Origin: Geosiphon pyriformis uo1
Lineage: Eukaryota > Fungi > Glomeromycota
Direction: 5' to 3'
Assembly: GCA_016748015.1 (NCBI GenBank)
Contig: JAAOMT010000557.1
Location: forward strand, 248,001 to 312,000
DNA: 64,000 nt
In this document: one piece after another, positions 810 through 31,956 of the stretch
How the letters are laid out: every line of letters begins with the position of its first letter
Position numbering within the stretch: the stretch's first letter is position 1
Made by a program: the position numbers and the translations under genes
Notes under the pieces: generated by a model
Told to the model about the DNA's origin: nothing
The model's input: the letters and a program-made list of their open reading frames with translations, nothing else
Databases searched by the model: none

Positions 810-3800
810 TTTTTATTTATTTATTAAAGTTTAATGAATGGAGTTCAAACGCCACTTAGTGCTATACATCATACAAATGATCTAAACTAGGTGCGAATCA
901 TGCTTTTGCTATATGTGACCAAACACTCAGACTAGTCAGAACAACACTACGCACTTATATGAACTGAAGCCATGTCACCAACACCTGCATAAAACAAACA
1001 ATGTTTATGATACCCAAAACTAATGCTGAGTGCATTAGCAACACCCAACAATCTAATCATCCCAGCCAAAAGCCACACAAAAAAACCAGAAACAGTGACA
1101 GGAATAAAACCATCACGTAGAATCAACTTATTCTTCTCCATAATGGCCCAGTGTTTTACATAGACCAGCCAGATATTATTACAAAATGCAAGACAAAACT
1201 CTCATACAAAATTTACAACATTGACCACTGCCACCTTAGGATCCTTGTAAACAAAAACAGACTTACAATACCAATTGCCGAAAACAAAACCCTTACACAG
1301 GGCCATACTGACAGTTACATCTGAAATGCAAGTCAACAACAACTGCGATATGCATGAAGAAAAACGAGACAGACCAGAACGCATCTCTCAGGCAGCTGCA
1401 TAAGTGTCCAACAAATTGGCACAACTATTAGCATCAGAAGAGCAAGAAAAGATATGGTCTGAGACTTCAACTTTACCACAGAACAAACAAACCACACTGG
1501 GATAACCCCTATTATACAGACGCTTTTGCACAGCAACAGGAAAGTGATGATGAAAGGCTTTCATGAAATATGTACGAAAGCCAGCTGTCCAAATACTAGT
1601 AAAACCAGTTGCCATATGGAAATCTGGGTGCCACACCAGAGAAAACCTCAACCAGTCAATATTAGCACGCAAACAACCTGGAACAACCTGGGAACCAGAA
1701 CCAACCTTCCAATGTGTGCGATGAATTGACCTGAATATGTCATGAACAAAATGCCTCAAATTACCAGAAACTGTATCAACACCAGCCTTCAAAAACCTCT
1801 TACTGATCAAGTGGGGCAGGTGCTAGGCAGAAAGGGCAGCATTTTTAGCCAGCACATCAGCATGCTTATTGCCTGAGACATCTGAATGGTTCTTAACCTT
1901 AATCTAATTAACATCCAAATTTTTGCGACAAATGACATTGGCAATATAATGATGCTCAATCCAACAACAATTCCTGAAATCAGGGCCAACCGATAAAGAC
2001 TTTGACCTGTAAGCATCAATAGCCACCTGGCTGTCTGAGAACAAGTCAACCAAACGAAAAGAAGAAACACACTCAAGAGCCAAAGCAATGGCCTGCAACT
2101 CTGCCAAAGTAGAAGAAACCAAACCAGAAATTCCCACACCCAGACCTGAATCAATGTCCTCAAAGAAAACCGTAGCACTAGCCAACATGTCAACAGTGCC
2201 CAAGTTACTCAGAGACCCATCTGTGTACACAAAGAGGTGGGTGGCACCTACACTCAACAGATCATTACAAATAACACCAAAACCAAGAGACTGACAAATG
2301 TCAGAAGAATCACCAATACCCTCATAAGGGGAACGACCAGAAGAAGAAACTACACCACCAAGAAAATGTACAGAGAGATCAAACCAAGAGAGGACCAGGC
2401 CACAGGGATCCAGTTTTTTCCAATACTTGAATGTCTTCCAATCAAAAACAATGCCATTCCAGTCACAAAGCTGTTCTACAAAAGCAATACCATAACACCT
2501 GAGGGAGGAGACACATTTGAAGAAAATTGTCTTACTGAGTACTAGAGACATAGAAGTACCACACCAAAGATGAAAAGCACTGGCCAGAGAGCCACCCAAA
2601 GACAAATTACACCCAGAAAAAATACGAACCACACCTGCCAAAAAGTTGTTTGAAGGGCTGACTTTAACACAAACAGGAAACAACAAAGGGTGACAAGGAC
2701 ACCAGCTGAGAACCTGGAGATCGTGAGACCTATGAAAAAACAAGTGACCCAAAACACCAACCGAATTCGCAAAAGCAATAATAGAAGCCAACTTGCTTTC
2801 AGCCTGAATCTGCTCAAAAGTCTTTAAATTGTACAAGAAAGAATAATAAAGTGCATTATTAGAAAAGTCCAGAGGCAGCCCAAATTTGGATTCCAGGTCC
2901 TTGTGTATCAAAGCATCCCATTTATTACACACACTGAGAAGAATAAAACGGAACTAAGTTCTGTAGCTGACGATAGAAAAGAGAACTAAAGACACCAAAT
3001 AAGCAAACTGTTTATCTGAAATAACTTTTCTCAGAATGAGATTAATGAAAAACTGAACATTCAAATGTGCCTTAACCAAGCTAGGCTTCGAAAAACCATC
3101 AGAAAATAAAAAAATACTCAGATAACGATGAGATTCACCTCTTTTAGCGATGAAAATTGGCATATCACTAATAGTTAGGTAAGAAGCAGTGATCTGACAG
3201 TTGATAAAAATAGCCACAGTTTTGTTATTGTTTATTAAAATGTCATTTAAACAAAAGAACTCACTAACAACATTAAGGATGTGTTGTGTAGCAGCTTGGC
3301 TGCTACTGACACAGATAGTATCATCAACAAAAGCACCAGCAGCCAGAAATGATGTCAGTCCAGCTTGAGATTCCACCTGGCCAGTTTTAGAAATGAAATG
3401 AGAAATCAACCTGTAACCACAAATGCTCTCCTGTCTCTTAACTTCACACAAAAGCAAGTCATAAAATATGCACCAGAGAAGTGGTAAAAAAACCTCCCCC
3501 TGATCCAATCCATCATGAACATAATATCCATTAGTCAAACCAAAATCTGTCATCACTCTGTTAGTGTGACCATTATGAATGCTACCAAAAAATCTAATAA
3601 ATTTGTCACACATTTTGATCCTGATCAAACTCCTCTTAAGATGCTCCCAACCAACAGAATCATAAGCTTTGCACATATCCTGTAAAACCAGCCACAACTC
3701 TCGGTTCTTTTTCAAAGCATCTTCGATTACCGAACCAATAGTGAAGATAGGCAATTGAGTAGATGTACTTTTCAGGACAAAAAAATTGTCCCTGCGGAGG

Positions 3801-4939
3801 ACATTAAAAGTGCTACAAGCCAGAAAGATCCAATTTGAAAGAATCTTGGAAAGGACCTTGTGAGCTGTCTCAATCAAAGCAATAGGGTGGGTATTTGTAA
3901 GAATCCCTTCCCACTTGTAAGGTTTAGGAATCATTGAGACCCAGGCTTCTCTCTAAAGTCTAGGCACTAACTCACAACCCAAACAAAAATTTAAGAGCAC
4001 CAAAAGCATATTCAAGACTGACTTGTCACAGTGTTTCCAAAGTTTATTAGAGATACCAGAAAGACCAGCCACTTTCCCATTGGACAAATTTGAAATAACA
4101 CCAAACATCTTATCAAAACCGATTGAATGCATTATATCAGAGAAAGCACCATCGAAGACATGATCCAAAGGCAGAAATTGCTTTGTCCAATCACCAGAGA
4201 TATCAGAAGCCATTACACATTTCTTAGTCCAACCCTCCATGATTCAATCCACCTTAGATTTAACCAACTTAGGCTCCAGGACTAACTCCCCACCATCCAT
4301 CAAATGATCCAACACTACTTTATAAAAAAGACACTCCAAAACACTTCTAATAGTGTGATCTTTATCCACCTCAAAACTCTCTATTCTCTTCTCAATAGCC
4401 TGCCTCACACTAGATTCTTCAGCATGCTTAGATTCTAACAACTTAGAAGAGCAATAAGACTTCCTTGTCTTAGCCAGTCCAGAACGGATTGCATCAAAAC
4501 TGGCACCAAAAAAAACAGAGATCTTACTGGCAAAGTGCCCACAGAATCAAGCCTGTTCCAAGTATCCAACAACAAGACAAAATTTCCGCTAGAAACCAAC
4601 CAAGAAGTCTTCACCAGTTTAAACACAAGTAGCTCCAGTTTATGAAACTGGGAAGATACCTTATTAAAAACACAATCAAAACTCTTAAACCATTTTTTCT
4701 TGAATGTTCCACCAGCCGAAAAAACCATAACCTTATGAACAATGTCCCATATCACATCCAGATCAGAAAACTGCTTAGCCACAACAAACTCATCCAAAAA
4801 CATAACAGCATTAACAGCTGTAGCATTCCTGAATTTTGACCACTTAATCTCACTGGTATTTTTGATATCATACTTCCAACAATCTTTATTAGCTTGTTTG
4901 TACAGTGAATTCAGCTGGACATCAAGCAGACCACCCAAC
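810..4939 (-). mobile_element. 5'-truncated L1-like non-LTR retrotransposon (LINE-A) with RT, RNase H and C-terminal Cys/His finger
   Basis: Minus-strand ORF fragments carry RT motifs (THPIALIET, QDMCKAYDSV, GLDQGEV, AFVDDT), RNase H motifs (VYTDGS, AELQAI, FSDSQ, NHSDVSGNKHAD) and CLFC..SDHIFSC. An (AATA)n tail lies at ~810-826. Homologous to 47750-51850. Confidence 0.93.
947..4938 (-). pseudogene. LINE-A ORF2 remnant (linker-RT-RNase H-zinc finger); endonuclease domain missing
   Basis: Consecutive ORF-track pieces 4435-4938, 4244-4441, 3953-4240, 2954-3934, 1904-2932, 1388-1810 and 947-1141, broken by stops and frameshifts. Confidence 0.9.
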
Positions 4940-5137
4940 TATATTAATCAATGATTAAGTACAAAAGGGAACTCTTATTGAGGACACTTGGAAATGAGCA
5001 CTCAATAGGCTGGACAGTTATCCACATGATAATTATAAAATCTGGAGAATGGCAAGTGCCAAAGCTGAAGGCACCATGCCTGAAGAAATACAAGAAATTA
5101 AGGACAACTCTTGGACACCTGAATATAATGGACCCAA
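4940..5137 (+). mobile_element. Left fragment of Gypsy-B pol (Cys-rich region), cut by the Gypsy-A insertion
   Basis: Translates to KGTLIEDTWK*ALNRLDSYPHD...EYNGP, homologous to RGTPFDAAYNSALNKLYHYPHD of Gypsy-A (~8970-9035). The frame resumes at ~14977 (DYSVDDFF). Confidence 0.85.
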
Positions 5138-6029
5138 TGTTATCAGTAGAATTTTAGCTATTAATTAGTATAACAAAAAGTAAGATGATTAAATTACACA
5201 ATATCCTGAACTTTGTAACATTTAAAAATTTGCCGAAATTTACAGAAATTCGCCGAAATTTATAAAAAATTTGCCGAAATTTAAAGAAATTCACCGAAAT
5301 TATGAATAGTTCACCCAAATTAATCAATAGTTCAGCAAAATAACTTGTAGTCTATCAAAATGTATCTTTAGTTCACCGAAATTTGAGCAGAGAAAAAGTG
5401 CAAGTTTATAGACTAGTACTACAACAAGTTGTATAAAAGAAGAGCTTTTCTCTTCAAGAAAATGTATCTTACTTTAGATTTATTACTTAGAATCATTCTT
5501 ATACACACAAAAAGAAATAAATATTAAATAATTTGAAAAACCAAATTCTTTAATTATTGCACTTGGAAAATCCCCAAAACCCAACTAATGTTTTAAAATT
5601 GATTAGCTACCAATTTCAGTAAACTGTTAATGACTCCAGGCCTGGATAGAAAACGTTTCTCTTGACAGAATTCAATTTCTTTTACATTTCTTTTACATTT
5701 CTTTTATTTTCTTATTATAATCATTAAAATAGCCTACAGACAAGATTCCTATAGAAGAGTTGACTTTTACAGCAAAGTAACTACACATTTTTAGTGAGCT
5801 TTTAGACGAGCAATTTCTGGGAAAGAGTTGATATTTACTACAATGTAACTACATAAAGTAACTGGCAAGGAATTGGCATTCTACTTATAAGCCCAGCAAT
5901 TCAAATTATAGGAGATAATTTGAAGATAAATTCAGTTATTGGAAGTTCATCTACTTTTAGAAAATGTAAATTTGCAACCAACAGACATTTACAACATTCA
6001 AAAAAAGAAACCAAAAATCTCTGGTAACA
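5138..6029 (+). repeat. Gypsy-A 5' LTR (892 bp)
   Basis: Direct repeat of 13984-14974 and inverted copy of 45219-46231. Termini tgttatcag / ctggtaaca. Confidence 0.96.
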
Positions 6030-6031
6030 TT

Positions 6032-6043
6032 TGGTGCTCTCCC
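6032..6043 (+). promoter_or_regulatory. Primer-binding site of Gypsy-A
   Basis: TGGTGCTCTCCC starts 2 nt after the LTR end; TGG is complementary to the tRNA CCA end. The tRNA species was not determined. Confidence 0.75.
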
Positions 6044-9000
6044 ATGGAAATAACACAGCAACAACAAATTCAAAGTTGCAACCACACCAGACACAATAAC
6101 TCTAGAGTATCATCAGTCAATTTACACCCACTGCAAGCAAAGATTCAACATCCCAGACGGAATTGAAGTTGTCAAGAAATAAGTATACCAATATATTAAA
6201 AATTGCATCAACAATTATCTTTTTGGAAACTACAACATTTCAGAAGTTAGAAGCAACCTCTACAATAATTTAGTGCACTATTCACAATTGGGAACAGAAA
6301 ACCTGAACAGTAAAACACTTGCTACCTACTTCCAAGAACTTAATTTTAATATTATTGAGTACTGTGAAGAAAAATACCCAGTACAGCCCAAATATTTTTT
6401 TAACTTTGAATCAGAAACAGAGACAAGCAACAAAAGCAAACAAAAAATAAAACAATACTCAAGAACCACTCCAAACACTCCAATACTACCAAAGACAACT
6501 GCCAAACACTTGCAAACACCTGAACAAGAAACCAATGTCAAATTACCACTTTCTATTACACCATTTCTAATTTCACTTGTTCAACCACAAACACCAAGTT
6601 CACTACTTAACCATTTCTCCAGACCAGAAGATTTTCAGTCACCTAGAAATCCTACTCAACAACAAGAACCAATATCAACAAGTGCCAATATCATTGATTA
6701 CTTACAAGAAAACGAAAGTAATTATTCAGAAAGCTTGGAAAGTGAAGAAACTGAACAAAAACCAGAAGAAGCCACAGAAAACAAAGAAGAAATGGCAACT
6801 GCTTATATTGCAAAGATTTCAGAATTCATGGGTAAAGATAATGATACTAGTCCTCAAGAATGGCTTAACAAAGTTCAAAAAGCAGGAGATGCAAATGGTT
6901 GGAATGCAGCAAGAATGCTCAAAGCAATTCCATACTTTCTCCAAAGAATTGCAGAAGAATGATTTGAAAACTTAGAAGAACTATTTGAAAACTGGCAAGC
7001 ATTCAAAGATGCTTTTCTACAACAATTCACTGACAACAACACTTCTATCACTCTCAAAAACTGCTTTCACAATATCAAGCAAGAAACATCTGAAACTGTT
7101 ATGACCTATCTTGAAAGATTCAACAAACTTCTCAGATGAATTCGCCAATTAGAAACCAATGACTACTATTCCGATGCTCAAATTCTGGATCAGTTTATAG
7201 TAGGGTTAAAAGACAAACTGATTAAGAAAGTCTGTTCACATGTTTTAGCAGATTTAGCAACTGCCATTAGACATGCAAAGAATTATGAAATGGCTATGGA
7301 AGAAGCAAACCACACCAAACTTGTTAATTTGGCTATTAGAGAAACCAGCTCAGTAGCTGAAAAAAAGATAGACCAACTCACAAAGAAAATTGAAAGCTAT
7401 TTTACAAACCAGCAACAACAGTAACAACAACCACAAAAATATCAATCACCACAGCGACACAACCAAAACAACTTTGGACCACCATTCAACAACCAATCTC
7501 AAAATTGTTACTATTGTGGAATTCCAGGACACTGGAAACAAGATTGCAGAAAACTACAAAAAGACCAACAAAACAAGAGTAATCAACATTATTCTTCATC
7601 ACAACAATCTTATTACCAACTCCTACCACCAACTTATTATTCACTAAGACCACAAATTCAAAACAGCTATTATCAACCAGCTCCACAACTAATTCAACAA
7701 CAATATTAGCAACCTTTACCAATTCAGCAATATCAGACACCACCCATTCAACAATATCAAGTACCAGCAAGAAAATTGGTTCAACATAACCAATTTACAC
7801 CCCAAAATCAATTTCAGAATAACAACAACAGAATTAATCCAAATAACCAGTTGGTTCTCCGAAATTCTGGTCAGCAAAAACCCAATCACTATCACACTCA
7901 ATCCAGTTATCTTATAATACCAGAGGAATCAGATTTTCAACAATCTGCACTTTCTGAAGGTAAAGTTGTAGCACTCAGATCAAATCCTTCCAACAACACT
8001 ATTCCACTGGCTCAAATTGCCCAAAATGCCAACCTTTCAGATATATTCCCATTCGAATTTGAAGCAAATGAATCACCATTCTTGCTTAGTAATGCAGCAG
8101 CTAATGAACAAAAAGCTATCACTGTCATGTACACTGAAGCTACAGTAGAAAAAAAACCCATCCGACTAATTCTAGACAGTGGATCAGCTGGAAGTATTAT
8201 CACTTACCAGTTAATACAATAGCTTCAAAGAACTGTTGACAGACCAGCCCAAACTGTAATTGTTATAGCAGATGGTATGAAAAAGACACCAGTAGGAGAA
8301 ATTGACAATTTTTCATTTACCATTGATAGAATCACCATTCCAGTCAAAGTTCTAATTATGAATACACCCCAATACCAAGCTCTGATCAGAAATAATTGGC
8401 TTCTTAAGGCCAATGCAAACTTGGACTGGAAAACTCAGGAATTAAAAATCTTATACCAAGGACAATACACCATAGTACCTGCTACTTGTGATACTTTTAA
8501 CAAATGATCAGAAAAAGTCCCAGTATTTGAATTTGAAGAGGAGAAAGAAATGCCACTTACTGAAACCTACATGGCTCTTGGATCAACATCCAATTGGTCT
8601 GAAAAAACAGAACAGGAGATTTTTGAAGAATCAAGAGGATGGAAAAAAGTTAGATATTCTTCACCAGAACCATGGAAACAACCACCCTATATTCCACTCA
8701 AATGCAAAGATTGCAACAAGAAACTTTCATCAATGAGAGCATGTATTTTTTTAGAAGAGAAATATGAAACTTGTACCTGTTACTTTTGCAAAGCATACCA
8801 TAAAGAACGATTTGGATCTCCAAAAAAAAGTGGAAAATGAGACAACACATCTTGCCTTACATGTAAAGATATGTTACCAGAAGAATGCAACTGGATTGAT
8901 GTTGCAATGAGAAGAGGAGTATGTAATCAAATTTGTCAATATGCTCTATCAATTTCGGAAAAAGTCAGAAGAGGAACACCATTTGATGCAGCATACAACA

Positions 9001-11698
9001 GTGCTCTCAATAAACTTTACCACTACCCTCATGATGCTGAAATGATTTTTAACCTAACAATGACATTGATTAATAGAGCCACTCAAGAAGATGTCCATCA
9101 AATGAAAGAAGCTGAATACATTGAGTATACCATGGAATTAGCTGGATTTGATTATGAAAATGAAGCAGAAACATATTATCAAATTGCAAGCCACACATAT
9201 CCGACCAAAGAAGCTCAAATTCAACAATTAGAGCAAATAAACATTCAATTGTGTAAAGAATACATCATGTTTTGTGATGACCAATAGTGTTTAGAATACT
9301 ATGCTCTTAGCATTCCTCTGCCAAATAAGAATGATGAAAATGAAATCGAATTTGAAGTATCTGAACTAGTAGAAAAACTACCAACCACCCTCATCTATCT
9401 TCTTGAAAAGCAACCATCTCTACAACTTAAATATTTTGACAACCATAGCCAAGGAATCAGACCAGAAAAAGCACACAAAATTGATGCCGGATATGATCTA
9501 AGATACCCAGAAAAAGATACTTTGGTTCTCCAACCAAAGTTTTTGACAAAAATCAATCTCAAAATCGCTCTTGAAATTCCACCTGGAGCAATGGTTCAAA
9601 TTGCCTCCAGATTATCATTGGCAAGCAAAGGAATCAATATTAGAGAAGGAGTTATAGATGCAGGATACACTGGAGACATTACTATCATGTTGTAGAATGA
9701 AACAGACAAACCATTCAAGATTGAACATGCTGAAAAAATTGCTCAAGCAATTTACCTACCCTTAATCAATATTTCAGGTCTACAATCAGTTAACAACAGA
9801 GAACAATTGGGAAAAAGTGAAAAAAGAACTCAAGGTTTTGGTTCAACTGGACAATTTACACTTCCAGTAAACATAGTCCTTAAAATACAAAATGAATCTT
9901 ACCAGATTCTTCAACTTCCCCAACCAATTACCATTTCACCTTTTGAAGAACATCACAAAATTTACACTTGCTCAAAACCCACTACTACCCAACAAATCTT
10001 TGAATCCAATGAACAAATCTGTTTGAAGCATAAAATCTTAATTCCAAACATTTATATTCCCAAAAGAATGAAAAAATTTCAAGTTACATTCTACAATCCC
10101 AATAATTACCCTATTGTCTTATTAAACAAATTAGAGATTGGAATCATATGCAGCAATATTTTTCAAGATAAAAACCCTCAAATTGTCTCTAATTTTATCA
10201 AAATTGTAAGGCACACTCTACTCCCAAATCCAAATATCATTCTCACCACTGAAAACTACCATCTTTTAAAAGAAAAACTCTCTTATATCAACATGGGTCC
10301 CTTAGAACCTCAACAACAAAGACAATTGAAACAATTGATAGCTGAATTTGCAGATATATTTGCAAAAGACAACAATAACTTGGGAAAAACGGATATTGTT
10401 CAACATCAAATCCATACAGGAGATACTTCACCAAAACATTAGCAAGCTTACAGAATACCACCTGCCAGTCACCAATTCATCAGAGAAGAAGTCCAGAGAA
10501 TGCTTAATAACGGATTGATTCAACTATTAAGAAGTCCTTGGGCCTCACCAGTAGTCCTTATCAAAAAGAAAAATAGAAAAATCAGTTTTGTGTTGACTAT
10601 CGCCAATTGAATAGTGTAACAATTGAAGATGCCTACCCTTTTCCAAGAATTGATGACATGTTAGATGCTTTAGGAAAAGCCAAGTTCTTCTCAATTTTGG
10701 ACTTGGAAAGTGGATACTGACAAGTCGAAATGGACCCAAAAGACTGACTCAAAACAGCATTTACCACCCAAGAAGGAAACTATGAGTTCAATGTTATGTT
10801 TTTTGGACTCTGCAATGCACCAACAACATTTCAGTGACTCATGGTTGTTGTATATAAAGGGCTCTTGTGGCAATCAGTAGTTGTTTATCTTGATAACACT
10901 GATGTATACTCACCAAGCTTTGAAGCCCACCTCATTCACCTGTGAAAAGTTTTTCAATGATTACAAAAAGCAGAATTAAAGTTAAACATTGAAAAATGTC
11001 ACTTTGGAAAAACAAGCTTGATTTTTCTTGGACACATAGTTAGTAAAGATAGAGTCAAACCAAACCCAGGAACAATTAGTGCTGTTAAAAACTTTCAAAC
11101 TTTCAGAAATACCACAAAACTACAAAGATTTGTAGGATTAATCTCTTACTATTAAAAATTCATAAAAAGATTCTTAGAAATTGCCAAACCACTCAATTAT
11201 CTTACCAACAAAAATGTGTTATACAAATGGACTGAAGAACAACAAAAAGCTTTTGAAACTCTCAAAACAAAATTGACAACAGCCCCAGTTCCTGCTTACC
11301 CAGACTTCAACAAACGGTTCCAATTAGCCACTGATGCTTCACACATAGCATTTGGTGCCATTTTATCACAATTAAATGAAAATGGACAAGAACAAGTCAT
11401 CGTCTATGCTAGTAGAACACTCAAACCAACAGAACTAAAATATGGCTCAACTGAATTAGAAACTGCCACAGTCATCTGGGCTCTTAAATATTTTCAACAA
11501 TATCTGAAGAATGAAAAAGAATTTGACATCATAATTGACAATATTGGTCTCAAATGGCTCAATAAAAAGAAAACTGAACAAAGTGCCAAACAGTCTCAAT
11601 GGAATGACTTCTTAGCAGACTACAAATATATTGTATATCACAAACCAGGAAAAATACACACTAATGTTGACAGTCTCTCAAGGATGAGACAATATTAA
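6044..11698 (+). pseudogene. Gypsy-A gag-pol (capsid, CCHC knuckle, aspartic protease, Cys-rich region, dUTPase, RT, RNase H)
   Basis: Essentially one frame with nonsense codons. Motifs: CYYCGIPGHWKQDC (~7506), LILDSGSAGS (~8167), SPWASPVVL, DL.SGY*Q, YLDN (YLDD, ~10885), LATDAS, TELE, NVDSLSR. A 1-nt deletion lies near 10585. Confidence 0.93.
9420..9851 (+). pseudogene. Trimeric dUTPase domain within Gypsy-A pol
   Basis: All five motifs are readable: DAGYDL, ASRLS, GVIDAGYTG, KIAQ, RTQGFGSTG. Confidence 0.93.
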
Positions 11699-11765
11699 TA
11701 CCAACATTAATACCAACAAAACACCAACAAACTTAACAGCAAAACAAACAACAAAATCAACAACA

Positions 11766-13151
11766 ATAGATCCAGAAAACTACAACAACATCAAAAACTA
11801 TTTGGAGACTCTCACCATGCCAGAAAATTGGTCCCCAAGTAAAAAACATTGATTACAACACCAATTTAAACAATATTTTATACACCACAACAAAATCTAT
11901 TACAAAAATTGTAAAAATCCAAACCAACTACTTAGATTAGTACAGGAAAATAAAAAAGAAACAATTTTATATAACATGCACACAGATCCATCTTCAGCAC
12001 ACTTGGGAAGAGATGGAACAATTCAAAGAACTCTTGAACATTATTTTTGGTCTCACATGCAAAAAAACATTTGACAATATGTAGAATCTTATGATAGTTG
12101 TCAAAGAAGAGGAGGAACTCGTCTCACAGAACCTTTAAATCCAATCAAAGTTGGACAACTGTTTGACAGAGTTGGAATTGATTTAATCAGACCATTACTT
12201 ATCACAACCCAAGAAAATCAGTATATTGCAGTAGCAGTAGATTATCTTACCAAATGGCCTAAAGCTAGAGCCATCCGAAGAGCAGATGCAAAATCAGTAG
12301 CAAATTTCATCTATGAAGACATTATTTGTAGACATGGATGTCTAATTGAACTTTTATCTGATCAAAGAACACATTTTGTGAACAACTTGATACAAAAAAT
12401 TTGTGAACAATTCAATGTCAAAAGACATCTATCATCACTTTATTACCCTCAAACAAATGGACTTGTAGAACAGTTCAACAAAACATTGTGTGAATTGTTG
12501 GCCAAAATCTCAACAGATTTTGAGCAGAAATGGGATATCTTTATTTTATCAGTGTTACTAGCATACAGAACACTAAAACAAGATACTACAAAACACACAC
12601 TATTTGACCTTACTTATGGAAGGACAGCAACATTACCAATTAATTTCACAGTAGAAACATATTCTGTGCAACCAATTAATGAAGAAAACTTTCAAGAAAC
12701 ATTCCAAAGAAGGGCCTACACTCTTTTTAGTACACTGGAAGGAAAAAGAAGAATAGCAGCAACTCATATTGAACATTCCCAAGCTCAACAAAAAGAAAGA
12801 CATGACAACAAATTACCACCCATAACCAACGAATTTAAAGTTAGAAATAAAGTTCTCTTACACAGAACTAAGGCTAAAAAACAATAGAGTAGAAAATTTG
12901 AACATAAATGGGATGGACTATTTTATATTTACGAAATTCTAGGCAATAGATTATACAAGTTAAAACTTGATGACAAAATACTAGCAAAAATTGCACATGG
13001 AAACAGATTAAAACACTATTATTCCAGAAACAATCCTGAACTATTAATTCCACAAATTGGTACACATTCCCCTTTAATTAATCCTAAAGATATTCCCCAA
13101 AATTTAGAACCAATAATTATAATAAAACAACAACCAAACTTGAACACTTAA
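11766..13151 (+). pseudogene. Gypsy-A integrase (separate ORF; HHCC-DDE-GPY/F, no chromodomain)
   Basis: MHTDPSSAHLG, VGIDL, LLSDQRTHF, QTNGLVE, KWDGLF. The putative start ATG reads ATA at 11766. Confidence 0.9.
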
Positions 13152-13295
13152 ATTTTACAATATTTTTTAATAAAAACACAAAGACAAAAAATAGTAAATA
13201 ATTACAAAAAACACCCAAACCCAAAAACAAATAAAAACCCCATATCCAAAAATAATTTTCTTTATTCTTTCTTTTTATAATTAGTCAATTTTATC

Positions 13296-13972
13296 ATGAT
13301 TATTCCCCGAAATATTCAACAAATATCCCAAAAGTTAATGTTAGCCTTGAAAACACTTCCTGACTTATTCATAACGATTAATGGAAGTCAAATTAATTAC
13401 ATTCAGAAAGAAACCACAGCCCCAGTAGTAAATTATTTACAGAACTATCACCTCTATAGAAGAAAAACAAGAAATCACTCTGAAAATAGGTTACCAAGAC
13501 TTTTGAAGCAAGCACTGGAAGAAAATCTTTTAATTGCCCTTATTGACATTCCACCAAATGCTACAATACAACAAAAACTTCTACTACTTCTCAATAAACG
13601 GAACAATGAACACACCCCTATCTATAAATACTTTCACATTGGAAAGACACTTTATGAACGAAAACTGAAACTTAAAACAACAAATCTCACTTCTGAAGCT
13701 ATACAAAAACAAATTTATAATGAATTCAAAACAGCAGCTGGACCAACAAACACTTGCTACAAACTTAGAGCAGCTTTTAGACTCTATGATTTGTTTAATA
13801 CTTGTGAAAATGTTTTACAAAATCTAATACTGCAACCAATGAAAGTCTAATATATTGGCAAACTCACAGAACTGAAATTTCAATAATTTTCAGACCAGAT
13901 TACTTCAATTATTTTGGATTACTATTTCAATATCACAGATAGTGCTTGGACTTTAATGGAGCTCAGTCTTGA
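13296..13972 (+). pseudogene. Gypsy-A ORF3, unknown function
   Basis: 184 open codons, then two TAA codons and a late frameshift. Ends at the PPT. Homologous to 19025-19759. Confidence 0.8.
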
Positions 13973-13980
13973 GGAGGAGA
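13971..13980 (+). promoter_or_regulatory. Polypurine tract of Gypsy-A
   Basis: GAGGAGGAGA ends 3 nt before the 3' LTR. Confidence 0.85.
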
Positions 13981-13983
13981 TTA

Positions 13984-14974
13984 TGTTACCAGTAGAATTT
14001 TAGCTATTAATTAGTATGAAATTACTCTTATAATTCCTATAATTAATTAGTATATTAATATTATTTCAAATTATCATTTATTATTTAATCAATTATCACA
14101 TATCACGATTCAATTAAATAATCCAATTAGTATAACAAAAAGTAGAATGATCAAATTACACAATACCCTGAACTTTGTAACATTCAAAAATTCGCCGAAA
14201 TTTACAGAAATTCGCCGAAATTTATAGAAATTCACCGAAATTATGAATAGTTCACCCAAATTAATCAATAGTTCAGCAAAATAACTTGTAGTCCATCAAA
14301 ATGTATCTTTAGTTTGCCGAAATTTGAACAAAGAGAAAAAGTGCAAGTTTATAGACTAGTACTACAACAAGTTGTATAAAAGAAGAGCTTTTCTCTTCAA
14401 GAAAATGTATCTTACTTTAGATTTATCACTTAGAACCATTCCTATACACACAAAAAGAAATAAATATCAAATAATTTGAAAAACCAAATTTTTTAATTAT
14501 TGCACTTGGAAAATTCCCAAAACCCAACTAATGTTTTGAAATTGATTAGCTACCAATTTCAGTAAACTATTAGTGACTCCAGGCCTGGATAGAAAACGTT
14601 TCCCTTGACAGAATTCAATTTCTTTTATATTTCTTTTATATTTCTTTTATTTTCTTATTACAATTATTAGGGTAGTCTACAGACGAGATTCTTATAGAAG
14701 AGTTGACTTTTACAGCAAAGTAACTACATATTTTTAGTGAGCTTTTAGACGAGCAATTTCTGAGAAAGAGTTGATATTTACTACAACATAACTACATAAA
14801 GTAACTGGCAAGGAATTGGCCATTCCACTTATAAGCCCAGCAAGTTCAAATTATAGAAGATAATTTGAAGATAAATTCAGTTATTAGAGGTTCAATTACT
14901 TCTAAAAAACGTGAATTTGCAACCAACAGACATTTACAACATTCAAGAAAAGAGACCAAAAACCTCCAGTAACA
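13984..14974 (+). repeat. Gypsy-A 3' LTR (991 bp)
   Basis: tgttaccag...ccagtaaca; matches the 5' LTR. Confidence 0.96.
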
Positions 14975-14978
14975 CTGA

Positions 14979-17562
14979 CTACTCTGTGGATGATTTCTTC
15001 ACAAATGACCCTGACACATTTTAGAACTGATATCAAGAATTAGCCCTGACCCAAAAAGAGCAAGAACAGTGGTTAGTTGATCTAAATACCAAACTATGCA
15101 ATTACTGCTTAATTCTTTGCCACTTTCAATATTGTGATCTCATATTCAACCCGCCTTTTAGAATCCTATATCCGATCACCAAATTACCTGAGCCTGAGAA
15201 AAAAGAGGAATTATTCACCAAGGACATGTTATTTTAAGAGCCAAATCAGACTACCAAAATAAAACAATATCTTCTGTATTCTAATCTCTTCAAAGAATTA
15301 AAATTAAAATTAAAATGGTACAGTAATAATGACAAAAGAATATGCCCAGAAAGAGCACATAAAACTGACACAGGTTTTGACTTAAGATACCCTGGACAAT
15401 CACCCATAGTTATAGTCTCATATTCTCTGGTAAAAATAGATCTCAAAATAGCACTAGAAATTTCTGTTAACATCATAGTACAAGTAGCATTTAGATTAAG
15501 CCTTGCAAAGAAAGAAATTGATGTAAAAAAAGAAATTATCAATGCCAGATATATGGGAAACATTATCGTAATGTTATAGAACAATTTAAACAAATCCTAT
15601 AAGATCGAATCTCACAAAAAGATTGTCCAAGCCATTTTCCTATCTTTAGTCAAAATACTCCAACTAGCCCCAGTTATCACCTGAGAAGAATTAGGCTTTA
15701 CTGCCTAAGGAATCAATGGGTTTGGCTCAAGTGAAAGAGGAAACGTAATGGTCAATTTTACAAAAGAAGATAGTGACCAGATAGAACTTATCTACACTGA
15801 CATCATCATTTTCATTTCTCTTTATTGGTAATACATTTTCAAAGTTAACTGGAAAATTCAGAACTAAGAATTAGTCTTCAAGGCCAATCCCAAAATCTGC
15901 TCACTAGCTGACATTGCTAATCTGTACTTACCAGTTAAAGCTCATAAACACTTCAAAATTCCCATCCACAATCTGATTGAAAATGTTATCAAAATCTTTG
16001 AGAGAACCTTAGTTGGTTCTATATCTTCAGATATTCAGAATCCAGAAAAACCCTAGCTCATTCCAGATTTTGCTTAATTGTTCTTGTTTTGTGATATTAC
16101 CTCACAAGTATGGAACCTGCCAAAGGAAAATTATTTGTTTATGCCAAAAGAAATCAATAAACTCAATCTGGAAAACCTGAGCACTTTACAGCAAATGCAA
16201 CTTAAGATTCTATTAAACCAATATACTGATGTCTTTGTCAGTGAAAATAAGTTCAAATGTACTGACATCATGAAACACCAAATTAATACTGGAAATGCTT
16301 GACCTATTAAGCAGCAAGCTTATTGAGTACTTCTATCTGATAATAATCTGATTAAGCAGAAAGTACAATGAATGCTTGACAACAGACTGATTAAAGAATT
16401 ATTAAGCTTTTGGTTCTCTCCAGTGGTCTTAGTCACAAAAAAGAATGGAAAGATACAATTCTGTGTAAATTACCAGAAATTAAATAGTATTATCTGAAAA
16501 GATAGCTATTCTACTCTTTTTATCTAAGAAATCCTAGACAACTTAAGAAAGAAAAAATGGTTTTTGTTATTAGATCTAACCAGTGGATATTGACAAGTCG
16601 AAATGGATCCAAAAGACAAAGAGAAAATGGCATTCACCACATAAAACAGAAATTTTGAATTCAACATAATGTCTTTCAGACTGTGCAATACTTCTGCTAC
16701 TTTCCAACATCTTATAAATGTTGTGTATAAAGGAATCTTATAGAAATCAGTTGTAGTATACTTGGATGACACCAATGTCTTCTCAGAAACATTTGACAAA
16801 TATTTGCTCCATCTGCAACAAGTCTTCAAACATCTTCAAGAAGCTGGATTAAAACTCAACCCTGATAAATGCTTCTTCAGGAAAACCAAACTGAAATTTT
16901 TAAGACACATGATTGGCAAGAATAAAGTAAAACCTGATCCAGACAAAATTCAAAAAGTCAAGGATTTTCTAGCCCCAATCAACCTACAAAAGCTATGAGG
17001 ATTTTTAGGATTGGCTGGATACTACTGCCAATTTGTCAAAGAATTTTCAACTATCACAAAACCCTTTTATCACTTGTTGTCCAAATATGTGCCATACTTG
17101 TGAAATAAAGAGCAACAAAAAATCTTCGACTATCTTAAATAGTGACTAATCACATCTCCAATACTGATCTATCTTAACTTCACCAAACAATTCATTGTCA
17201 CTACAGATGCATCAAAAAATACATTAGGAGCTGTATTATCATAAATAGAACCAGACAGAAGAGAATATTTAATTGCCTATGTCAATTACAGTACCAGTCC
17301 AGTAGAAAAAATATAAAGTGCAATCAATTTGGAATGTCTCACCATTTATTGGGCCATACAAACATGGAAATATTACCTTAGGCAACCATTTGACTTATAT
17401 ACCAATCATAAAGAACTTATTTGGTTACTTAATAATTTACAGCTGGAAAGAAAATATGCAAAATAGAATACTTATCTACAACAATTCCCACTCAAAGTTC
17501 ATTACAAAAAAAGATTCAAGAACACCAATGCCGACAGTTTGTTGAAGATACCACAAACCTAA
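14979..17562 (+). pseudogene. Gypsy-B pol remnant (Cys-rich tail, dUTPase, RT, RNase H)
   Basis: Collinear with Gypsy-A pol; many nonsense codons; ends NADSLLKIPQT*. Confidence 0.88.
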
Positions 17563-17572
17563 TCTCAGATCC

Positions 17573-18940
17573 ATAAACACACTTACTTATTAGTGATTAT
17601 ATTAGTACCTATCAACACTACGTTTTAAGAAGATATTATCTTAACAAAAACAAAATACCATATGGAAACAAGCACGAAATTACTTTATTCAAAATAACCA
17701 ACTCTATCATTGAGAATGATGAAACCACACCACTCCACAACAATTGATTAAGAACAGTGAAAAAGAAGCTATATTATATAGTATGTATTCTGATCCAATT
17801 GCAGAATACTTTAACAAAAATATGACTCTGGAAAAAACAACAAATCTATACTATTGGCCTACAATATATAAGGATATCTTCAAATATGTTCTCAATTGTG
17901 ACTCATGTCAGTAAAGAGGAAGAGCCAGGATAATGGAATCACTTTGATCCATTTCAGTTGGAAATTTATTTGATAGAATTAGGATTAATTTGGTTGGTTC
18001 CCTTTCGATTATATCTAAAGGAAATTGTTATATTACTGTAGTCATAGACTACCTTACAAAATGGCCAGAAGTCAGAGCAATCCAAGTAGTTGATGCCAAA
18101 ACAGTAGCCAAATTTGTATACCAAGATTTAATATGCAGACATAGATGCCCGAAAAAACTGTTATCAAACCAAAGAACACATTTTGTCAATACTATATTAA
18201 CTGAATTGAGTCAACATTTTGGTATAAAATGACCATTATCGTTATCATATCACCCACAAACAAATAAACTGGTAGAATGGTTTAACAGGACATTATATGA
18301 AGCATTAGCAAAAATAAGTTACAAAAACAAACAAGAATAGAACTTATTCATATCTTCTGTACTTTTTGCATATCAAACATTAAAGCAAAATATAACACAA
18401 TTTACATCATTCAAATTAGTCTATAGAAGAAAAGCAATGTTACCTATTGAATAAGAAATAGCATCCTACTTAACAAAAACTATCAACAAAAAAAATTTTA
18501 AAGATATCTTACGCCAAAAAACATACCAGTTAATAAAAACATTAGAAAACAATCATAGAATAGTGGCTGACAATATTAGTAATACTTGAAAATGACAAAA
18601 AGAAAAACATGATGATCACCTACTTGAACAACCAATGAAATTTAAGATTGAAGACCAAGTACTATTACATTGTACAAAAGCAAAAAAACAATGGAGTGAA
18701 AAGTTTGACCCAAAGTGGAATGGCCCATTCCACATACACAAAGCATTAGGAAATAAAGCTTACAAATTACAATTGAAAGACAGAATTTTAAAGAAAGTAG
18801 CTCATGAGAATTAATTAAAAATTTATTATGTAAAACAACAGTTATTATTATCAGTACATCAATTAGGAACACAAATTCCATTAATCAGACCAGAAAATAT
18901 ATTACAAAATCTGGAATTAATTATTGTCATTGAAACATAG
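17573..18940 (+). pseudogene. Gypsy-B integrase (separate ORF)
   Basis: CDSC, DYLTKWPE, YHPQTN, PKWNGPF. Lies in the +1 frame relative to RH; putative start ATG reads ATA at 17573. Confidence 0.87.
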
Positions 18941-19024
18941 ACAACATGTAGCAAATTAAATTGGGAAAGTCAAGTATATATACCATCCAGAAAACAATGA
19001 GAAAATGATAGAACTTTTTTTAAC

Positions 19025-19759
19025 ATGGACCTTTCAGATCAAATTCTACAACTTTTGAAACAACTGTTTGATGCAATTCAACAATTTTTTGCTCAAATAG
19101 AAATCACAATTGATAAAAAAAAGATATGATACAGGGATAGAAGCAAGAAAGGGGTGGACAAAAGTTCAACTAGAACTAAGCTGTCCCATCCTTACAAGCA
19201 AACTTCTCCCTATAAAAGAAAAAGAAAAAGAGATACAGCGGGGATAGGACCCAACACAGTTAAGGAGAAGGGGAAGATGACAGAAATGAAACTGTGTTAG
19301 GTGAAAATTGAGGAAATAAGGGAGGATCTGAACAAGCAAACACCAAAGCTGGTAACAAAAGAATAGACACCTGAAAATGTGAAGAAATAAAAAAAGAAAC
19401 TTCTATTTGTCTATTGGCTATTTAAAATTGGATTACAATTAGGATTAGATAATCCATATAAAGACTTCAACCATCAAACAATCAACAAAAAAGTCTGCAG
19501 ACAAGTAAAAAAATTTATGGAAAGAAACAATTTAAACCTATATTACAAAACAACATACTGACTATATTCAGCATTTAAACACTGTCCAATGGTACTACTA
19601 GACAAAACTCTAAAAACTATCACAGTTAACAACATAGGATGGATAACAAACACCCAATTTGAAGTTATACAAAAAGCAATACTGAGGACAACATTTGAGT
19701 TCTTTATAGAAAACACAAACTTGGCTAAAATAGATGATTTTGCAGAAGCTCAATTTTAA
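19025..19759 (+). pseudogene. Gypsy-B ORF3, unknown function
   Basis: 245 codons in a single frame from ATG 19025 to TAA 19757-19759, with about 5 internal stops. Homologous to Gypsy-A ORF3. Confidence 0.75.
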
Positions 19760-20261
19760 AAAAGAGAAATAATGTTACCTGAATAGAAAAACCAAAAAGC
19801 TGTGGAAAAATGTGACAAAAAAATGTGACAAGAAAAATGTGGTACAACTCGAGATAACATAGGACAAACACAAGCAATAGCTAGCAATAACAAGCAATAG
19901 TTAGCAATAGTAAAGCAATTGAAAACAATCCTGTAAAACCAAAAGAATATATAAAAACAAATAATTGTAGAAGTTGAAAAGACAAGTTATTTAAAAATCA
20001 ATTTTACTTTGTATTCTACTTATCAGATATCCATAATCCAAAATACAATAATTATCAAAAAAAAAACACAAAATCCAATTTACAAATTCATGTTCTCCAA
20101 TCTTATGGATTTTAATTGGAATTAAAATCAGTATTTTCTATCTTTGTTCTGAGACAGATGTCATTAGCATAAATGCCTCGAACCTTTAATGATTTAGACC
20201 AATTGTTCTTGATCATGGCAATTAACAGAAACTAATTTTTTTCTTTTTTTTTCTTTTTCTT

Positions 20262-20300
<39 letters not shown>

Positions 20301-21165
20301 GTGCANNNNNNNNNNNNNNNNNNNNCTTCAACCATCAAACAATCAACAAAAAAGTCTGCAGACAAGTAAAAAAATTTATGGAAAGAAACAATTTAAACCT
20401 ATATTACAAAACAACATACTGACTATATTCAGCATTTAAACACTGTCCAATGGTACTACTAGACAAAACTCTAAAAACTATCACAGTTAACAACATAGGA
20501 TGGATAACAAACACCCAATTTGAAGTTATACAAAAAGCAATACTGAGGACAACATTTGAGTTCTTTATAGAAAACACAAACTTGGCTAAAATAGATGATT
20601 TTGCAGAAGCTCAATTTTAAAAAAGAGAAATAATGTTACCTGAATAGAAAAACCAAAAAGCTGTGGAAAAATGTGACAAAAAAATGTGACAAGAAAAATG
20701 TGGTACAACTCGAGATAACATAGGACAAACACAAGCAATAGCTAGCAATAACAAGCAATAGTTAGCAATAGTAAAGCAATTGAAAACAATCCTGTAAAAC
20801 CAAAAGAATATATAAAAACAAATAATTGTAGAAGTTGAAAAGACAAGTTATTTAAAAATCAATTTTACTTTGTATTCTACTTATCAGATATCCATAATCC
20901 AAAATACAATAATTATCAAAAAAAAAACACAAAATCCAATTTACAAATTCATGTTCTCCAATCTTATGGATTTTAATTGGAATTAAAATCAGTATTTTCT
21001 ATCTTTGTTCTGAGACAGATGTCATTAGCATAAATGCCTCGAACCTTTAATGATTTAGACCAATTGTTCTTGATCATGGCAATTAACAGAAACTAATTTT
21101 TTTCTTTTTTTTTCTTTTTCTTTATTTTTTTTTTTTCTTTTTTTTTTCTTTTTTTCTTTTGGAGC
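19465..21165. other. Assembly gap (N 20306-20325) with duplicated contig overlap
   Basis: 19465-20300 is repeated, apparently identically, at 20326-21165 except in the poly-T tract. Confidence 0.9.
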
Positions 21166-21533
21166 AGCAACATAAGAAAATTGGCTGTTTTAAAATAGAC
21201 TTCATAATAGCTTGGTAAAAAAAGAAAGCTCCCCCTAAGTTTTGGATATTAATATTATCTTGGTAGTTTATCAAAAGGGCGAAAAGACAATACTGGACCC
21301 TAATAACTATGCTTATTAGCGAAAAGAAGAAAACTCACATTTACAGAAAATATTGTAATTGACAAAAAACAAACTCTGTGTCTTATAACCAAAAAACTCA
21401 ATGAGTAAATTCACATCCAAAAAAGACTTTTAGAGACTGATAAACATCAACCCTATGAAAAACATACAACCATAGAATACTAAATTAGAGCACTAAATAT
21501 TACTACCATACTCCACCAAGTTTACCCATAATA
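20634..21533 (+). repeat. Gypsy-B 3' LTR (partial duplicate at 19773-20305)
   Basis: Starts TGTTACC after a purine tract. Contains (AGCAATAG)-like tandem repeats, a TATA-like sequence and a pyrimidine tract. The end is inferred from cataata (~TAACA) and the start of hAT homology. Confidence 0.7.
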
Positions 21534-30335: not shown

Positions 30336-31956
30336 TATATATGTATTTGTGTACATATGTATTTGTGTATTGTGTGTGCCCTGTGCTCACTACATCTGTA
30401 ACTCTTTTTATATTTTTATTTGGCGTCACAAAACAATTTCAACCTCCAAACTGTACATACACACAAATTCACTTAATACACATATATCCAAAAACAAAAA
30501 AAAAACCCTCCCCCCTCTCCCCATAATCATCTTACATCAATCAATGTTCGCGCTTTTTTTTCTTTTTCTTTTCCGCCTTTTCTATTGTACAATAATTTTT
30601 CAGTCTCCCTAATCTTGAAATTTTATTTTTCTTTTTGCTTCAAAAAAAAATTCATTATCATCATCATTATCATCATCATCATCATTATTCCCGTCATCAT
30701 CATTATCATTATCATCATCGTCATCCCCCAACATAATATTCTTATCACAAAAAACACACATACACACTTTCGAATTTAGGAAATTTTTTGACCATTATTT
30801 ATTTCTTTGGATTTAAAATATCACACCATCAATCGTATCAAATCAAATCAATTCAATTCAAAAATCCCTAAACCTCTTTCTCTCTGCTAATAGAAATCTC
30901 TCTTACCTTCTTTTACCCACCTTCTCTTGGTCGATTTTCCGATTTTCCCATTGAAACAACTTTATCCTTATCTACCACTTTTTTTTTATATATCAATAGA
31001 TTCTTTTTTTTAGACTTATCTTTGGTTTAATACTATACAATATATTTTCCTACATCATCACTAATATTTATTATTGGTGGTCTCGGTCAATTTTCACTTT
31101 TTGTCGTCGACTTTCCTGTTTATACCCGTCCTTTACATACGAATTGTCGTCGACCCTTTCGGTTCACCTCTAAAAATTTTCTCACTTACTAGACTAATTT
31201 CTAAATTTCTATTTGCAAAAGCTTAGGCTTTCCAATTTTTTTTTTAATTTTTTGCTTTGTGAAATAGTCAAAATTCCATTTTCATAACTCTCTATCCACT
31301 CAAGAGCCGCGCTTGACACGGTTCGAAACAATTTAACGATAAATACAATACAATCCAATCCAATCCAATCCAATCTAATAAAATCAAAATTCCTTTGTAC
31401 CGTGCTATTTCTCAAGTCTCGAGGTAAGAGTCAACGGACAATAAACCGCTTTCTCGGACAAAAAGAACACGCATAGTAGAAATACGACTTAAAAGATAAA
31501 CAACCATTTTGACGACTACTCATGTGTGTCATAAACAGCAAAGACAAATGTATTATTCTCCGCCTTTACTTGTCCCTAACCTCAAAACTGTCTTTGACAC
31601 CCGAGGCGAATATAATGGCTCGTCCAGTTGATTGAGGAGTATTTCGAGACCCCATTGAAAAGGTTTACTCCTCACCCATTGAACACAATTGAAATCACCA
31701 ACAAACAGTCAATCAATTGTTACCATCGATCTTAAAGATTTAGGTGTTTGTTTGAACGGAATTTCTTGATTCTTTTCGATACTAAGAGTTGTTGGCTCCT
31801 CACTCAATTGACATAGCCCCCCCTCCCCCTCAAAACTCTTGGAATTTCTTTGTGGCCTAGCTGATTTTTAAAATATCCACCTAACTTCTTTGAAATTACC
31901 TTTCTTCAAAATTCATCATGTTCCTTAGGTTAAAAAAAAAGGGAGATCTTTCAACC

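What the first reader, a model, noticed from the sequence alone, without database searches (positions are those of the whole stretch)
13296..19759. Conserved non-env third ORF in two diverged Gypsy families
Seen: both elements carry a ~225-245-codon ORF between integrase and the PPT (13296-13972 and 19025-19759). Their LTRs are dissimilar, yet the proteins align. YKYFHIGKTL matches YWLFKIGLQL; KQIYNEFK matches KKVCRQVK; AAFRLYDLFNTC matches TTY*LYSAFKHC; MKV*YIGKLTELKF matches ITVNNIGWITNTQF; both end DFxxAQx* at the PPT. There is no signal peptide or TM segment, and both have basic NLS-like runs (RRKTR, KRKRKR). Inference: a selected nuclear accessory protein, such as a trans-activator, anti-silencing factor or targeting factor. 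From memory the pattern resembles helical DNA-binding families (DUF1016 N-terminus, DUF3102) and an expanded hypothetical family in AM fungi; this is unverified.
Basis: partly seen in the sequence, partly recalled or inferred. Interest (0 to 1): 0.78.

Follow-up and report, generated by a model that had tools for sequence, protein, structure and literature searches.

The report
Nuclear accessory gene of fungal retrotransposons
Two nested fungal jumping genes each carry a decayed copy of the same old extra gene behind their integrase; it is not an envelope gene, matches no named protein family, and likely encodes a nuclear protein that binds the element's own terminal repeats to switch it on or keep it from being silenced.

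Summary
The extra ORF is real. Both elements are Ty3/Gypsy-type. Both ORFs are broken here (2 and 5 stops), as decayed as Pol in the same element. They are homologous: blastp E=1e-6, 0 of 3000 shuffles; profile-profile E=6e-14. Ten lineages share the gene at 11-75% identity: seven among Geosiphon pyriformis gene models, three from metagenomes. One metagenome contig holds an open copy between integrase and PPT. There is no hydrophobic segment, so it is not env. It has a PY-type nuclear-import motif in a disordered linker and a confidently predicted seven-helix domain (pLDDT 90) with conserved basic residues on one helix-turn-helix. Two corrections: the shared 'DFxxAQx*' end is a DNA motif that family A reads in another frame, running into the LTR; and the DUF1016/DUF3102/ParB likeness did not beat reversed controls. 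The best reading is an LTR-binding activator or anti-silencer (about 0.4, inferred); binding, expression and function are untested. Extra 3' ORFs are a known class. I found no description of this family in 7 targeted literature searches. The scan noted extra ORFs in fungal Gypsy elements on other DNA; I did not test kinship.

The parts
5138..6029 (+). Element A 5' LTR
   Evidence: 91% identical to the 3' LTR; 51 of 57 substitutions are transitions
6030..6047 (+). Element A primer-binding-site-like stretch (TGG after the LTR end)
   Evidence: sequence; the tRNA was not identified
6183..11698 (+). Element A gag / protease / dUTPase / RT / RNase H region, decayed, ending in a stop after RNase H
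   Evidence: ORF pieces; dUTPase PF00692 E=7e-9; tblastx to B; junction. The gag and protease labels are read from the sequence; Pfam gave no hit on those two pieces.
11766..13151 (+). Element A integrase, a separate frame after the RNase H stop
   Evidence: rve PF00665 E=2e-8; junction translation
13296..14003 (+). ORF3 of element A: 235 codons, two in-frame TAA (13848, 13884), reads through the PPT into the LTR
   Evidence: 209 close relatives
13557..13919 (+). Conserved helical domain of A's ORF3 (about residues 88-208)
   Evidence: models of relatives P0005 and L001; alignment
13951..13983 (+). Conserved pre-PPT nucleotide motif and the PPT of A
   Evidence: same DNA motif in A, B and L001, read in different frames
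13984..14974 (+). Element A 3' LTR, with a 10/20-bp-period CCGAAATT repeat array at about 14188-14265
4950..5137 (+). Left remnant of element B; its reading continues at 14975, so A is nested in B
   Evidence: flank translations, and flanking 4-mers CCAA / CTGA that fit a CpG-decayed CCGA duplication; the nesting is inferred
14975..18940 (+). Element B dUTPase-RT-RNase H and separate integrase, decayed
   Evidence: tblastx to A 46-49%; junction
19025..19759 (+). ORF3 of element B: 244 codons, five in-frame stops, ends DFAEAQF* at the PPT
   Evidence: relatives P0003, P0004
19775..20227 (+). Element B 3' LTR, with a 10-bp-period AAGCAATAG repeat array at 19872-19929
20326..21166 (+). 99.5% copy of 19465-20305 (end of B's ORF3 plus LTR) across an N gap, likely an assembly overlap
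   Evidence: the artefact reading is inferred

Best explanation
ORF3 is an old, selected third gene of a clade of fungal Ty3/Gypsy retrotransposons, and its product is likely a nuclear DNA-binding regulator that would bind short repeats in the element's own LTR to raise transcription or to counter methylation silencing. Shown: the gene, its position, its spread over ten lineages, signs of selection, and the lack of a membrane segment. Predicted: a small N-terminal helix-two-strand module, a disordered linker with a PY-type import signal, and a seven-helix domain with a basic helix-turn-helix. Inferred steps: (1) it is translated apart from Pol, from a shorter RNA or by reinitiation, as integrase is also a separate frame in these elements; (2) it is imported through the PY motif; (3) helices 3-4 read DNA; (4) the target is the family-specific, roughly 10-bp-period LTR array, which would explain why both the LTRs and ORF3 diverge faster than Pol.
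For: Homology: A vs B E=1e-6; A-like vs B-like profiles probability 98.2, E=6e-14 over 196 columns.
Spread: 63 profile hits among 1.84 billion representatives, sorted into 10 lineages at 11-75% identity. Seven of 10 looked-up clusters are named G. pyriformis and 3 are unnamed metagenome proteins.
Position: an open 230-codon copy between integrase and PPT in L001. 21 of 23 gene models that carry both parts put integrase before ORF3, in lineages A1, A2, B1, B2 and D.
Selection: stops per frame are 2, 5 and 0 in frame against 10-27 in the other five frames. Stop density equals that of Pol in the same element (A 2/235 vs 7/1269; B 5/244 vs 6/312). Second codon positions are the most conserved in 5 of 5 pairs. 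A1/A2 differences are more conservative than rare within-family changes (BLOSUM 0.39 vs -0.30, p=0.003) and rarer in the helical domain (14/108 vs 30/104, p=0.006).
Nuclear import: an R/H/K-X2-5-PY motif (definition: PMC2408616, abstract start in the search listing) in 8 of 11 proteins inspected, inside the segment with pLDDT under 50.
DNA binding: domain pLDDT 90, pTM 0.83. The recurrent basic and polar positions 60, 72, 74, 78, 80 and 84 fall on helix 3-turn-helix 4, and no Asp/Glu/His set is invariant.
Target: short-period arrays of different sequence in the LTRs of A, B and L001. A's LTRs keep CpG at O/E 0.48-0.60 against 0.13 inside the element.
Against: No fold or family match is significant. 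The best VIA Z is 5.6 and none of 48,161 chains reaches Z 8; the ParB/Spo0J DNA-binding domain (Z 5.1, rmsd 4.5, 96 aligned) is tied with unrelated helical proteins. Profile-profile scores against DUF1016_N, DUF3102 and ParB-HTH are no better than reversed controls. Whole-protein net charge is near zero in most intact relatives (-3 to +8). The Atlas feature search also ranks a filamentous-virus coat protein (0.92-0.94) and a phage translation repressor (0.88-0.92) high; both bind RNA (recalled). LTR repeats are common and may be host-factor sites; CCG triplets are typical of fungal zinc-cluster factors (recalled). The A repeat is not enriched in interior non-coding spacers, and the solo LTR lost that CpG in 4 of 5 repeats. 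B's LTR is not CpG-rich (O/E 0.24). The PY motif is mutated in the window's A copy and absent from two of the 11 gene models. The codon-position pattern partly follows from aligning on protein, and the A-family copies were pre-selected as open gene models.
Confidence: 0.42

Rival explanations
1. ORF3 is a nuclear RNA-binding factor (Rev-like or packaging aid). It would bind the element's RNA, perhaps at the conserved pre-PPT motif, and steer export, translation of the downstream frames, or packaging.
For: The element needs several separately made proteins, since there is a stop after RNase H in A, B and L001. The pre-PPT motif is conserved as nucleotides in two frames. Atlas feature neighbours include a filamentous-virus coat protein and a translation repressor. 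Many PY-signal cargoes bind RNA (recalled).
Against: No known RNA-binding fold was matched. The Atlas scores lie in the range that shuffled proteins reach 4-10 times in 100. The motif may simply serve plus-strand priming or integration.
Confidence: 0.22
2. ORF3 is an integration cofactor that would carry the pre-integration complex into the nucleus or tether it to target chromatin.
For: It stays next to a stand-alone integrase and carries import signals. Both target duplications seen here fit CpG-centred sites.
Against: CCGG/CCGT targeting is reported for Ginger1 transposons, which encode a Gypsy-like integrase (PMC2836005, passages), so integrase alone may explain the target choice. ORF3 diverges much faster than integrase (25% in the domain vs 56% for A against L001).
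Confidence: 0.15
3. ORF3 acts on the host or on rival elements (for example as a suppressor of small-RNA silencing or a copy-number control factor) through protein contacts, not through nucleic acid.
For: The domain is all-helical, has modest net charge and no catalytic set. CG methylation and small RNAs at TE loci are reported for Rhizophagus irregularis (10.1101/2021.03.30.436303, passages).
Against: The recurrent surface-type residues are basic and clustered on one helix pair.
Confidence: 0.15
4. ORF3 is a hitch-hiking host fragment, an env remnant, or a chance open frame.
For: It sits in the env position. The top Atlas cluster is an unnamed Mucoromycota family of unknown context. The context of P0181 is unknown.
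Against: The frame and length are kept across 10 lineages at down to 11-25% identity. The other five frames are full of stops. There is no hydrophobic segment and no env family in Pfam.
Confidence: 0.06

Closest known systems
Sense additional ORFs between pol and the 3' LTR (aORF-3S, env-like ORFs of Athila and Bagy2; Vicient and Casacuberta 2020, PMC7264820, main text read)
   Same: Same position and strand; kept across many copies of a family; function unknown.
   Different: Those are called env-like because some have transmembrane segments. This protein has none and carries nuclear-import motifs; no sequence link was found.
Maize Grande gene23 and other antisense aORFs (as reviewed in PMC7264820)
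   Same: An accessory ORF 3' of pol whose product is nuclear, proposed to regulate transposition like retroviral accessory factors.
   Different: Those are antisense with their own promoter and occur mostly in plants. This one is sense, fungal, and abuts or overlaps the PPT and LTR.
VANC anti-silencing proteins of Arabidopsis VANDAL transposons (PMC5735166, abstract and outline seen)
   Same: A TE-encoded protein whose targets form tandem repeats that differ between related TEs. This is the working analogy for ORF3 and the family-specific LTR arrays.
   Different: VANDALs are DNA transposons (recalled). No sequence match was found, no loss of methylation is shown here, and the repeats here sit in the LTR only.
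DUF1016_N (PF17761), DUF3102 (PF11300) and ParB/Spo0J HTH (PF17762) helical domains
   Same: A similar helix order and a YxxIGxxL-type first helix in forced alignments; weak Pfam, Atlas and VIA hints.
   Different: Far below the Pfam cut-off, and profile-profile scores equal reversed controls. A resemblance, not membership.
Enzyme-encoding extra ORFs of Gypsy elements, such as the orchid AlkB demethylase (PMC12786077, passages; PMC9289625, search listing)
   Same: A fixed extra gene that is proposed to help the element against host control.
   Different: No enzyme family and no invariant catalytic residues here.

Membership tests
Ty3/Gypsy LTR retrotransposon | LTR pair, PBS, PPT, and the order RT-RNase H-integrase | tested here: met
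   B lacks its 5' LTR and gag in this window
Ty3/Gypsy LTR retrotransposon | Integrase made as part of the Pol polyprotein | tested here: not met
   stop after RNase H and a new start in A, B and L001
Ty3/Gypsy LTR retrotransposon | RT phylogeny places it in a named clade | not tested
   no RT tree was built
Sense additional ORF (aORF-3S) | Sense ORF between pol and the 3' LTR, kept across copies and families | tested here: met
env / env-like protein | Transmembrane segment | tested here: not met
   highest KD19 mean 0.27-1.29 in 11 of 11 proteins; soluble helical model
env / env-like protein | Signal peptide | tested here: inconclusive
   hydropathy only; the N-terminus is modelled as a helix followed by two strands
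env / env-like protein | Match to an env family profile | tested here: not met
   no env family in Pfam scans of 2, 26 and 16 proteins
env / env-like protein | Made from a spliced subgenomic RNA | not testable with these tools
   no RNA run was listed. A has a pyrimidine tract and an AG 11 nt before the ATG; L001 does not
DUF1016_N (PF17761) | Pfam gathering score of 32.8 bits | tested here: not met
   14.1 and 12.9 bits; 6 of 26 members hit, best E=0.0039
DUF1016_N (PF17761) | Profile-profile similarity above control | tested here: inconclusive
   E=0.06 vs reversed 0.08; best subset E=0.015 vs 0.035; profile from 72 of 80 loci
DUF3102 (PF11300) | Profile match | tested here: inconclusive
   no Pfam hit; Atlas 0.89; hhalign E=0.045-0.12 vs reversed 0.07-0.13
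ParB/Spo0J HTH domain | Shared fold | tested here: inconclusive
   1vz0_A Z 5.1, rmsd 4.5, 96 aligned; 6s6h_B Z 4.3, rmsd 3.0, 60 aligned; tied with unrelated rows; hhalign E=0.12-0.51
PY-type nuclear import signal | R/H/K-X2-5-PY in a disordered segment | tested here: met
   8 of 11 proteins inspected; pLDDT under 50 at residues 41-61. A motif match only; import itself was not tested.
VANC-type anti-silencer (works-like claim) | Family-specific tandem target repeats in the element | tested here: inconclusive
   arrays are present and differ between families, but nothing ties them to ORF3
VANC-type anti-silencer (works-like claim) | Sequence-specific binding and loss of methylation | not testable with these tools
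   needs bench work; LTR CpG retention is only indirect

The most novel reading that the evidence does not exclude
A clade of mycorrhizal-type fungal retrotransposons is built like a complex retrovirus, with three separately made units (Gag-Pol, integrase, regulator). Its third gene encodes a DNA-binding domain of a new family that recognises its own LTR repeats and shields them from CpG methylation, co-evolving with those repeats family by family: a VANC-like system in LTR retrotransposons.
Probability: 0.17. Interest if true: 0.85.

Novelty: new variant of a known kind. Interest (0 to 1): 0.52.

Why it matters
LTR sequences cover 41% of the G. pyriformis genome (PMC11952901, passage). CG methylation and small RNAs target TEs in the related R. 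irregularis. How such elements expand under silencing is open. A conserved, soluble accessory gene with natural intact copies and family-specific LTR repeats gives a direct cross-family test (protein x LTR matrix). It also explains well over a hundred 'hypothetical proteins' in that genome as transposon genes: 209 clusters for family A alone, of which the 120 listed are all G. pyriformis. If it proves to be an ordinary accessory factor, it is one more family among known extra ORFs.

Tried and rejected
No whole genome is held, so genome-wide copies and a true dN/dS were not possible; DNA pairs in hand are saturated at third positions. No RNA holder was listed. No complex prediction was obtained for integrase with ORF3: no verdict. 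Pfam on the two window proteins gave no family. PDB sequence searches gave one weak hit each, E about 0.9. PHROGs gave no consistent named family. Foldseek on PDB and BFVD gave no match at E<=0.001; the same uncharacterised phage protein A0A6J5P0G3 topped BFVD twice (E about 0.1, TM 0.28-0.40) and was not pursued. VIA on the full-length model was filled by the long C-terminal helix. VIA on the domain gave no Z>=8, which does not show that the fold is new. The Atlas structure search gave TM<=0.40. Viral contigs gave 0 of 114 candidates. One search was circular (P0002 was inside the alignment) and was not used. In the DUF1016/DUF3102/ParB test the method did see DUF1016_N vs ParB-HTH (E=1e-4) and DUF1016_N vs DUF3102 (E=0.003), but not ORF3; 18 further subset comparisons gave a best E=0.015. 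Dropped rows: 8 of 80 DUF1016 loci without a long open frame; 37 of 42 DUF3102 loci were used; 87 of 120 A-family models (200-245 aa) entered. I rejected the shared 'DFxxAQx*' protein end, and the reading of 20326-21166 as a third copy. PMID 38750926 on LTR elements of anaerobic fungi is not held. No supplements were read; the TE libraries of PMC11952901 may already contain these elements.
Full report
Setting. The window is AT-rich eukaryotic DNA. All 120 listed close relatives of A's ORF3 and both relatives of B's are gene models named Geosiphon pyriformis, so the host is likely that fungus or a close relative (inference). No whole genome is held.

Anatomy. Element A runs from 5138 to 14974 with LTRs 91% alike. 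It holds gag- and protease-like frames, dUTPase, RT, RNase H and integrase. A is nested in element B: the reading left of A continues right of it, and the flanking 4-mers CCAA and CTGA fit a CCGA duplication decayed at CpG (inferred). B shows dUTPase, RT, RNase H, integrase, ORF3 and a 453-bp LTR. Its Pol is 46-49% identical to A's and its LTR is unrelated. In A, B and the metagenome contig L001 a stop follows RNase H and integrase starts anew. Earlier notes on this genome report the same split.

The observation. A's ORF3 spans 13296-14003 with two stops; B's spans 19025-19759 with five. Their density matches Pol in the same element (A 2/235 vs 7/1269 codons; B 5/244 vs 6/312), so the frames decayed with the copies. 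The other five frames hold 10-27 stops each. A and B align with E=1e-6, and 0 of 3000 shuffles reach the score. One claim fails: A does not end in DFxxAQx*. That peptide is out of frame in A. Of 87 A-family models, 73 end in the ELSLE-type frame by my motif list and none in AQx, and L001 uses the same frame as A. The nucleotides before the PPT are conserved in A, B and L001, so the constraint there is likely on DNA or RNA.

Family. The A search found 209 clusters, in two subfamilies 64.5% alike. A profile search of 1.84 billion representatives gave 63 hits. They sort into ten lineages at 11-75% identity, in two well-supported groups, A-like and B-like. Profiles of the two groups, built without shared members, match over 196 columns (probability 98.2, E=6e-14). 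Three lineages come from unnamed metagenome records. L001 holds RT-RNase H, integrase, an open 230-codon ORF3, the PPT and an LTR start; L002 holds an integrase end and the first part of ORF3. In 21 of 23 gene models that contain both parts, integrase precedes ORF3. For lineages C and E and for P0152 and P0181 I saw no DNA; the C-terminal PPT-type ends of P0152 and of lineage E suggest the same position.

Selection. A proper dN/dS was not possible. Indirect tests agree. Frame and length are kept at about 20% identity. Second codon positions are the most conserved in 5 of 5 pairs, with third positions at the saturated level also seen in Pol (partly a result of aligning on protein). Differences between A1 and A2 are more conservative than rare copy-specific changes (p=0.003) and avoid the helical domain (p=0.006) (copies pre-selected as open models).

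Protein. The highest hydropathy window is 0.27-1.29 in 11 of 11 proteins, and no env family is hit. The full-length model of relative P0005 (pLDDT 78) shows an N-terminal helix with two strands, a disordered linker and a helical domain. The linker carries R/H/K-X2-5-PY in 8 of 11 proteins, the PY-NLS core as defined in PMC2408616 (abstract start). The window's A copy has Leu in place of that Pro. The domain alone, from L001, folds at pLDDT 90 and pTM 0.83 into seven helices. Conserved columns are mostly hydrophobic, plus Gly37, Asn74, Asn107 and Thr113, with basic residues recurring on helix 3-turn-helix 4; no Asp/Glu/His set is invariant.

Known folds. Foldseek found nothing at E<=0.001. VIA gave a best Z of 5.6; Spo0J/ParB scored Z 5.1 over the whole domain but tied with unrelated proteins. 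Pfam DUF1016_N hit 6 of 26 members weakly. The Atlas listed DUF6192 (0.92) and DUF3102 (0.89), but also a viral coat protein (0.94) and a translation repressor (0.92). I built profiles from natural members and compared them directly. ORF3 scored E=0.06, 0.079 and 0.51 against DUF1016_N, DUF3102 and ParB-HTH, like the reversed controls (0.08, 0.13, 0.49), while DUF1016_N matched ParB-HTH at E=1e-4. The best subset result was E=0.015 against a control of 0.035. The likeness remains a lead.

Mechanism. I favour a nuclear regulator acting on the LTR (0.42). The LTRs of A, B and L001 each carry a short-period array of different sequence. A's LTRs keep CpG four times better than the interior, mostly within that array. 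This matches the pattern described for VANC proteins, whose targets form tandem repeats that differ between related TEs (PMC5735166, abstract). Against it: B's LTR is not CpG-rich, the solo LTR lost most of one CpG, host factors could own these sites, and no binding is shown. An RNA-level role (0.22), an integration cofactor (0.15) and a protein-contact role (0.15) remain open. No expression or complex result was obtained.

Novelty. Extra ORFs 3' of pol are known in plants, animals and fungi (PMC7264820, main text; PMC12786077, passages). Seven searches showed no paper describing this family. The two AM-fungal TE papers I searched by term do not discuss it in the passages seen. The library lacks most subscription journals, and supplements were not read. 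Earlier notes of this scan describe third ORFs in fungal Gypsy elements of other genomes; sequence look-ups found no overlap, so kinship is untested. Verdict: a real, apparently undescribed family within a known class, function inferred; interest 0.52.

Noticed in passing
window 11696-11768, about 17560-17660; L001 772-801: Integrase is a separate frame behind a stop after RNase H in A, B and L001. Earlier notes on this genome report the same.
   Followed up: partly
window 5134-5137 and 14975-14978; solo LTR 45219-46231 (-): 4-bp target duplications (CCAA/CTGA and CCAG/CCAG) that fit CpG-centred sites decayed after insertion. Ginger1 uses CCGG/CCGT (PMC2836005).
   Followed up: partly
L002 398-811: A further 137-codon sense ORF lies between the integrase end and ORF3 in this relative; no Pfam hit. 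Some members may carry two accessory genes.
   Followed up: partly
window 13951-13972, 19740-19759; L001 about 3085-3105: A conserved nucleotide motif just before the PPT is read in frame by B-like lineages and out of frame by A-like lineages; likely a cis-acting signal.
   Followed up: partly
window 9462-9870 and about 15330-15730: Both elements carry a dUTPase upstream of RT.
   Followed up: partly
window 8508-9460: About 300 codons with several Cys pairs lie between the protease-like region and dUTPase in A; not identified.
   Followed up: no
window 20326-21166: 99.5% duplicate of 19465-20305 across an N gap; likely a scaffolding overlap.
   Followed up: partly
window about 1000-4950 (-), 36800-39100 and 44200-51000 (+): Decayed LINE-like elements, judged from the translations; one holds the solo LTR of family A.
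   Followed up: no
window 31894-33640: A host gene with Ser/Thr-rich low-complexity sequence and a C-terminal CxxC...CxxC motif that looks like a GATA-type zinc finger (label recalled).
   Followed up: no
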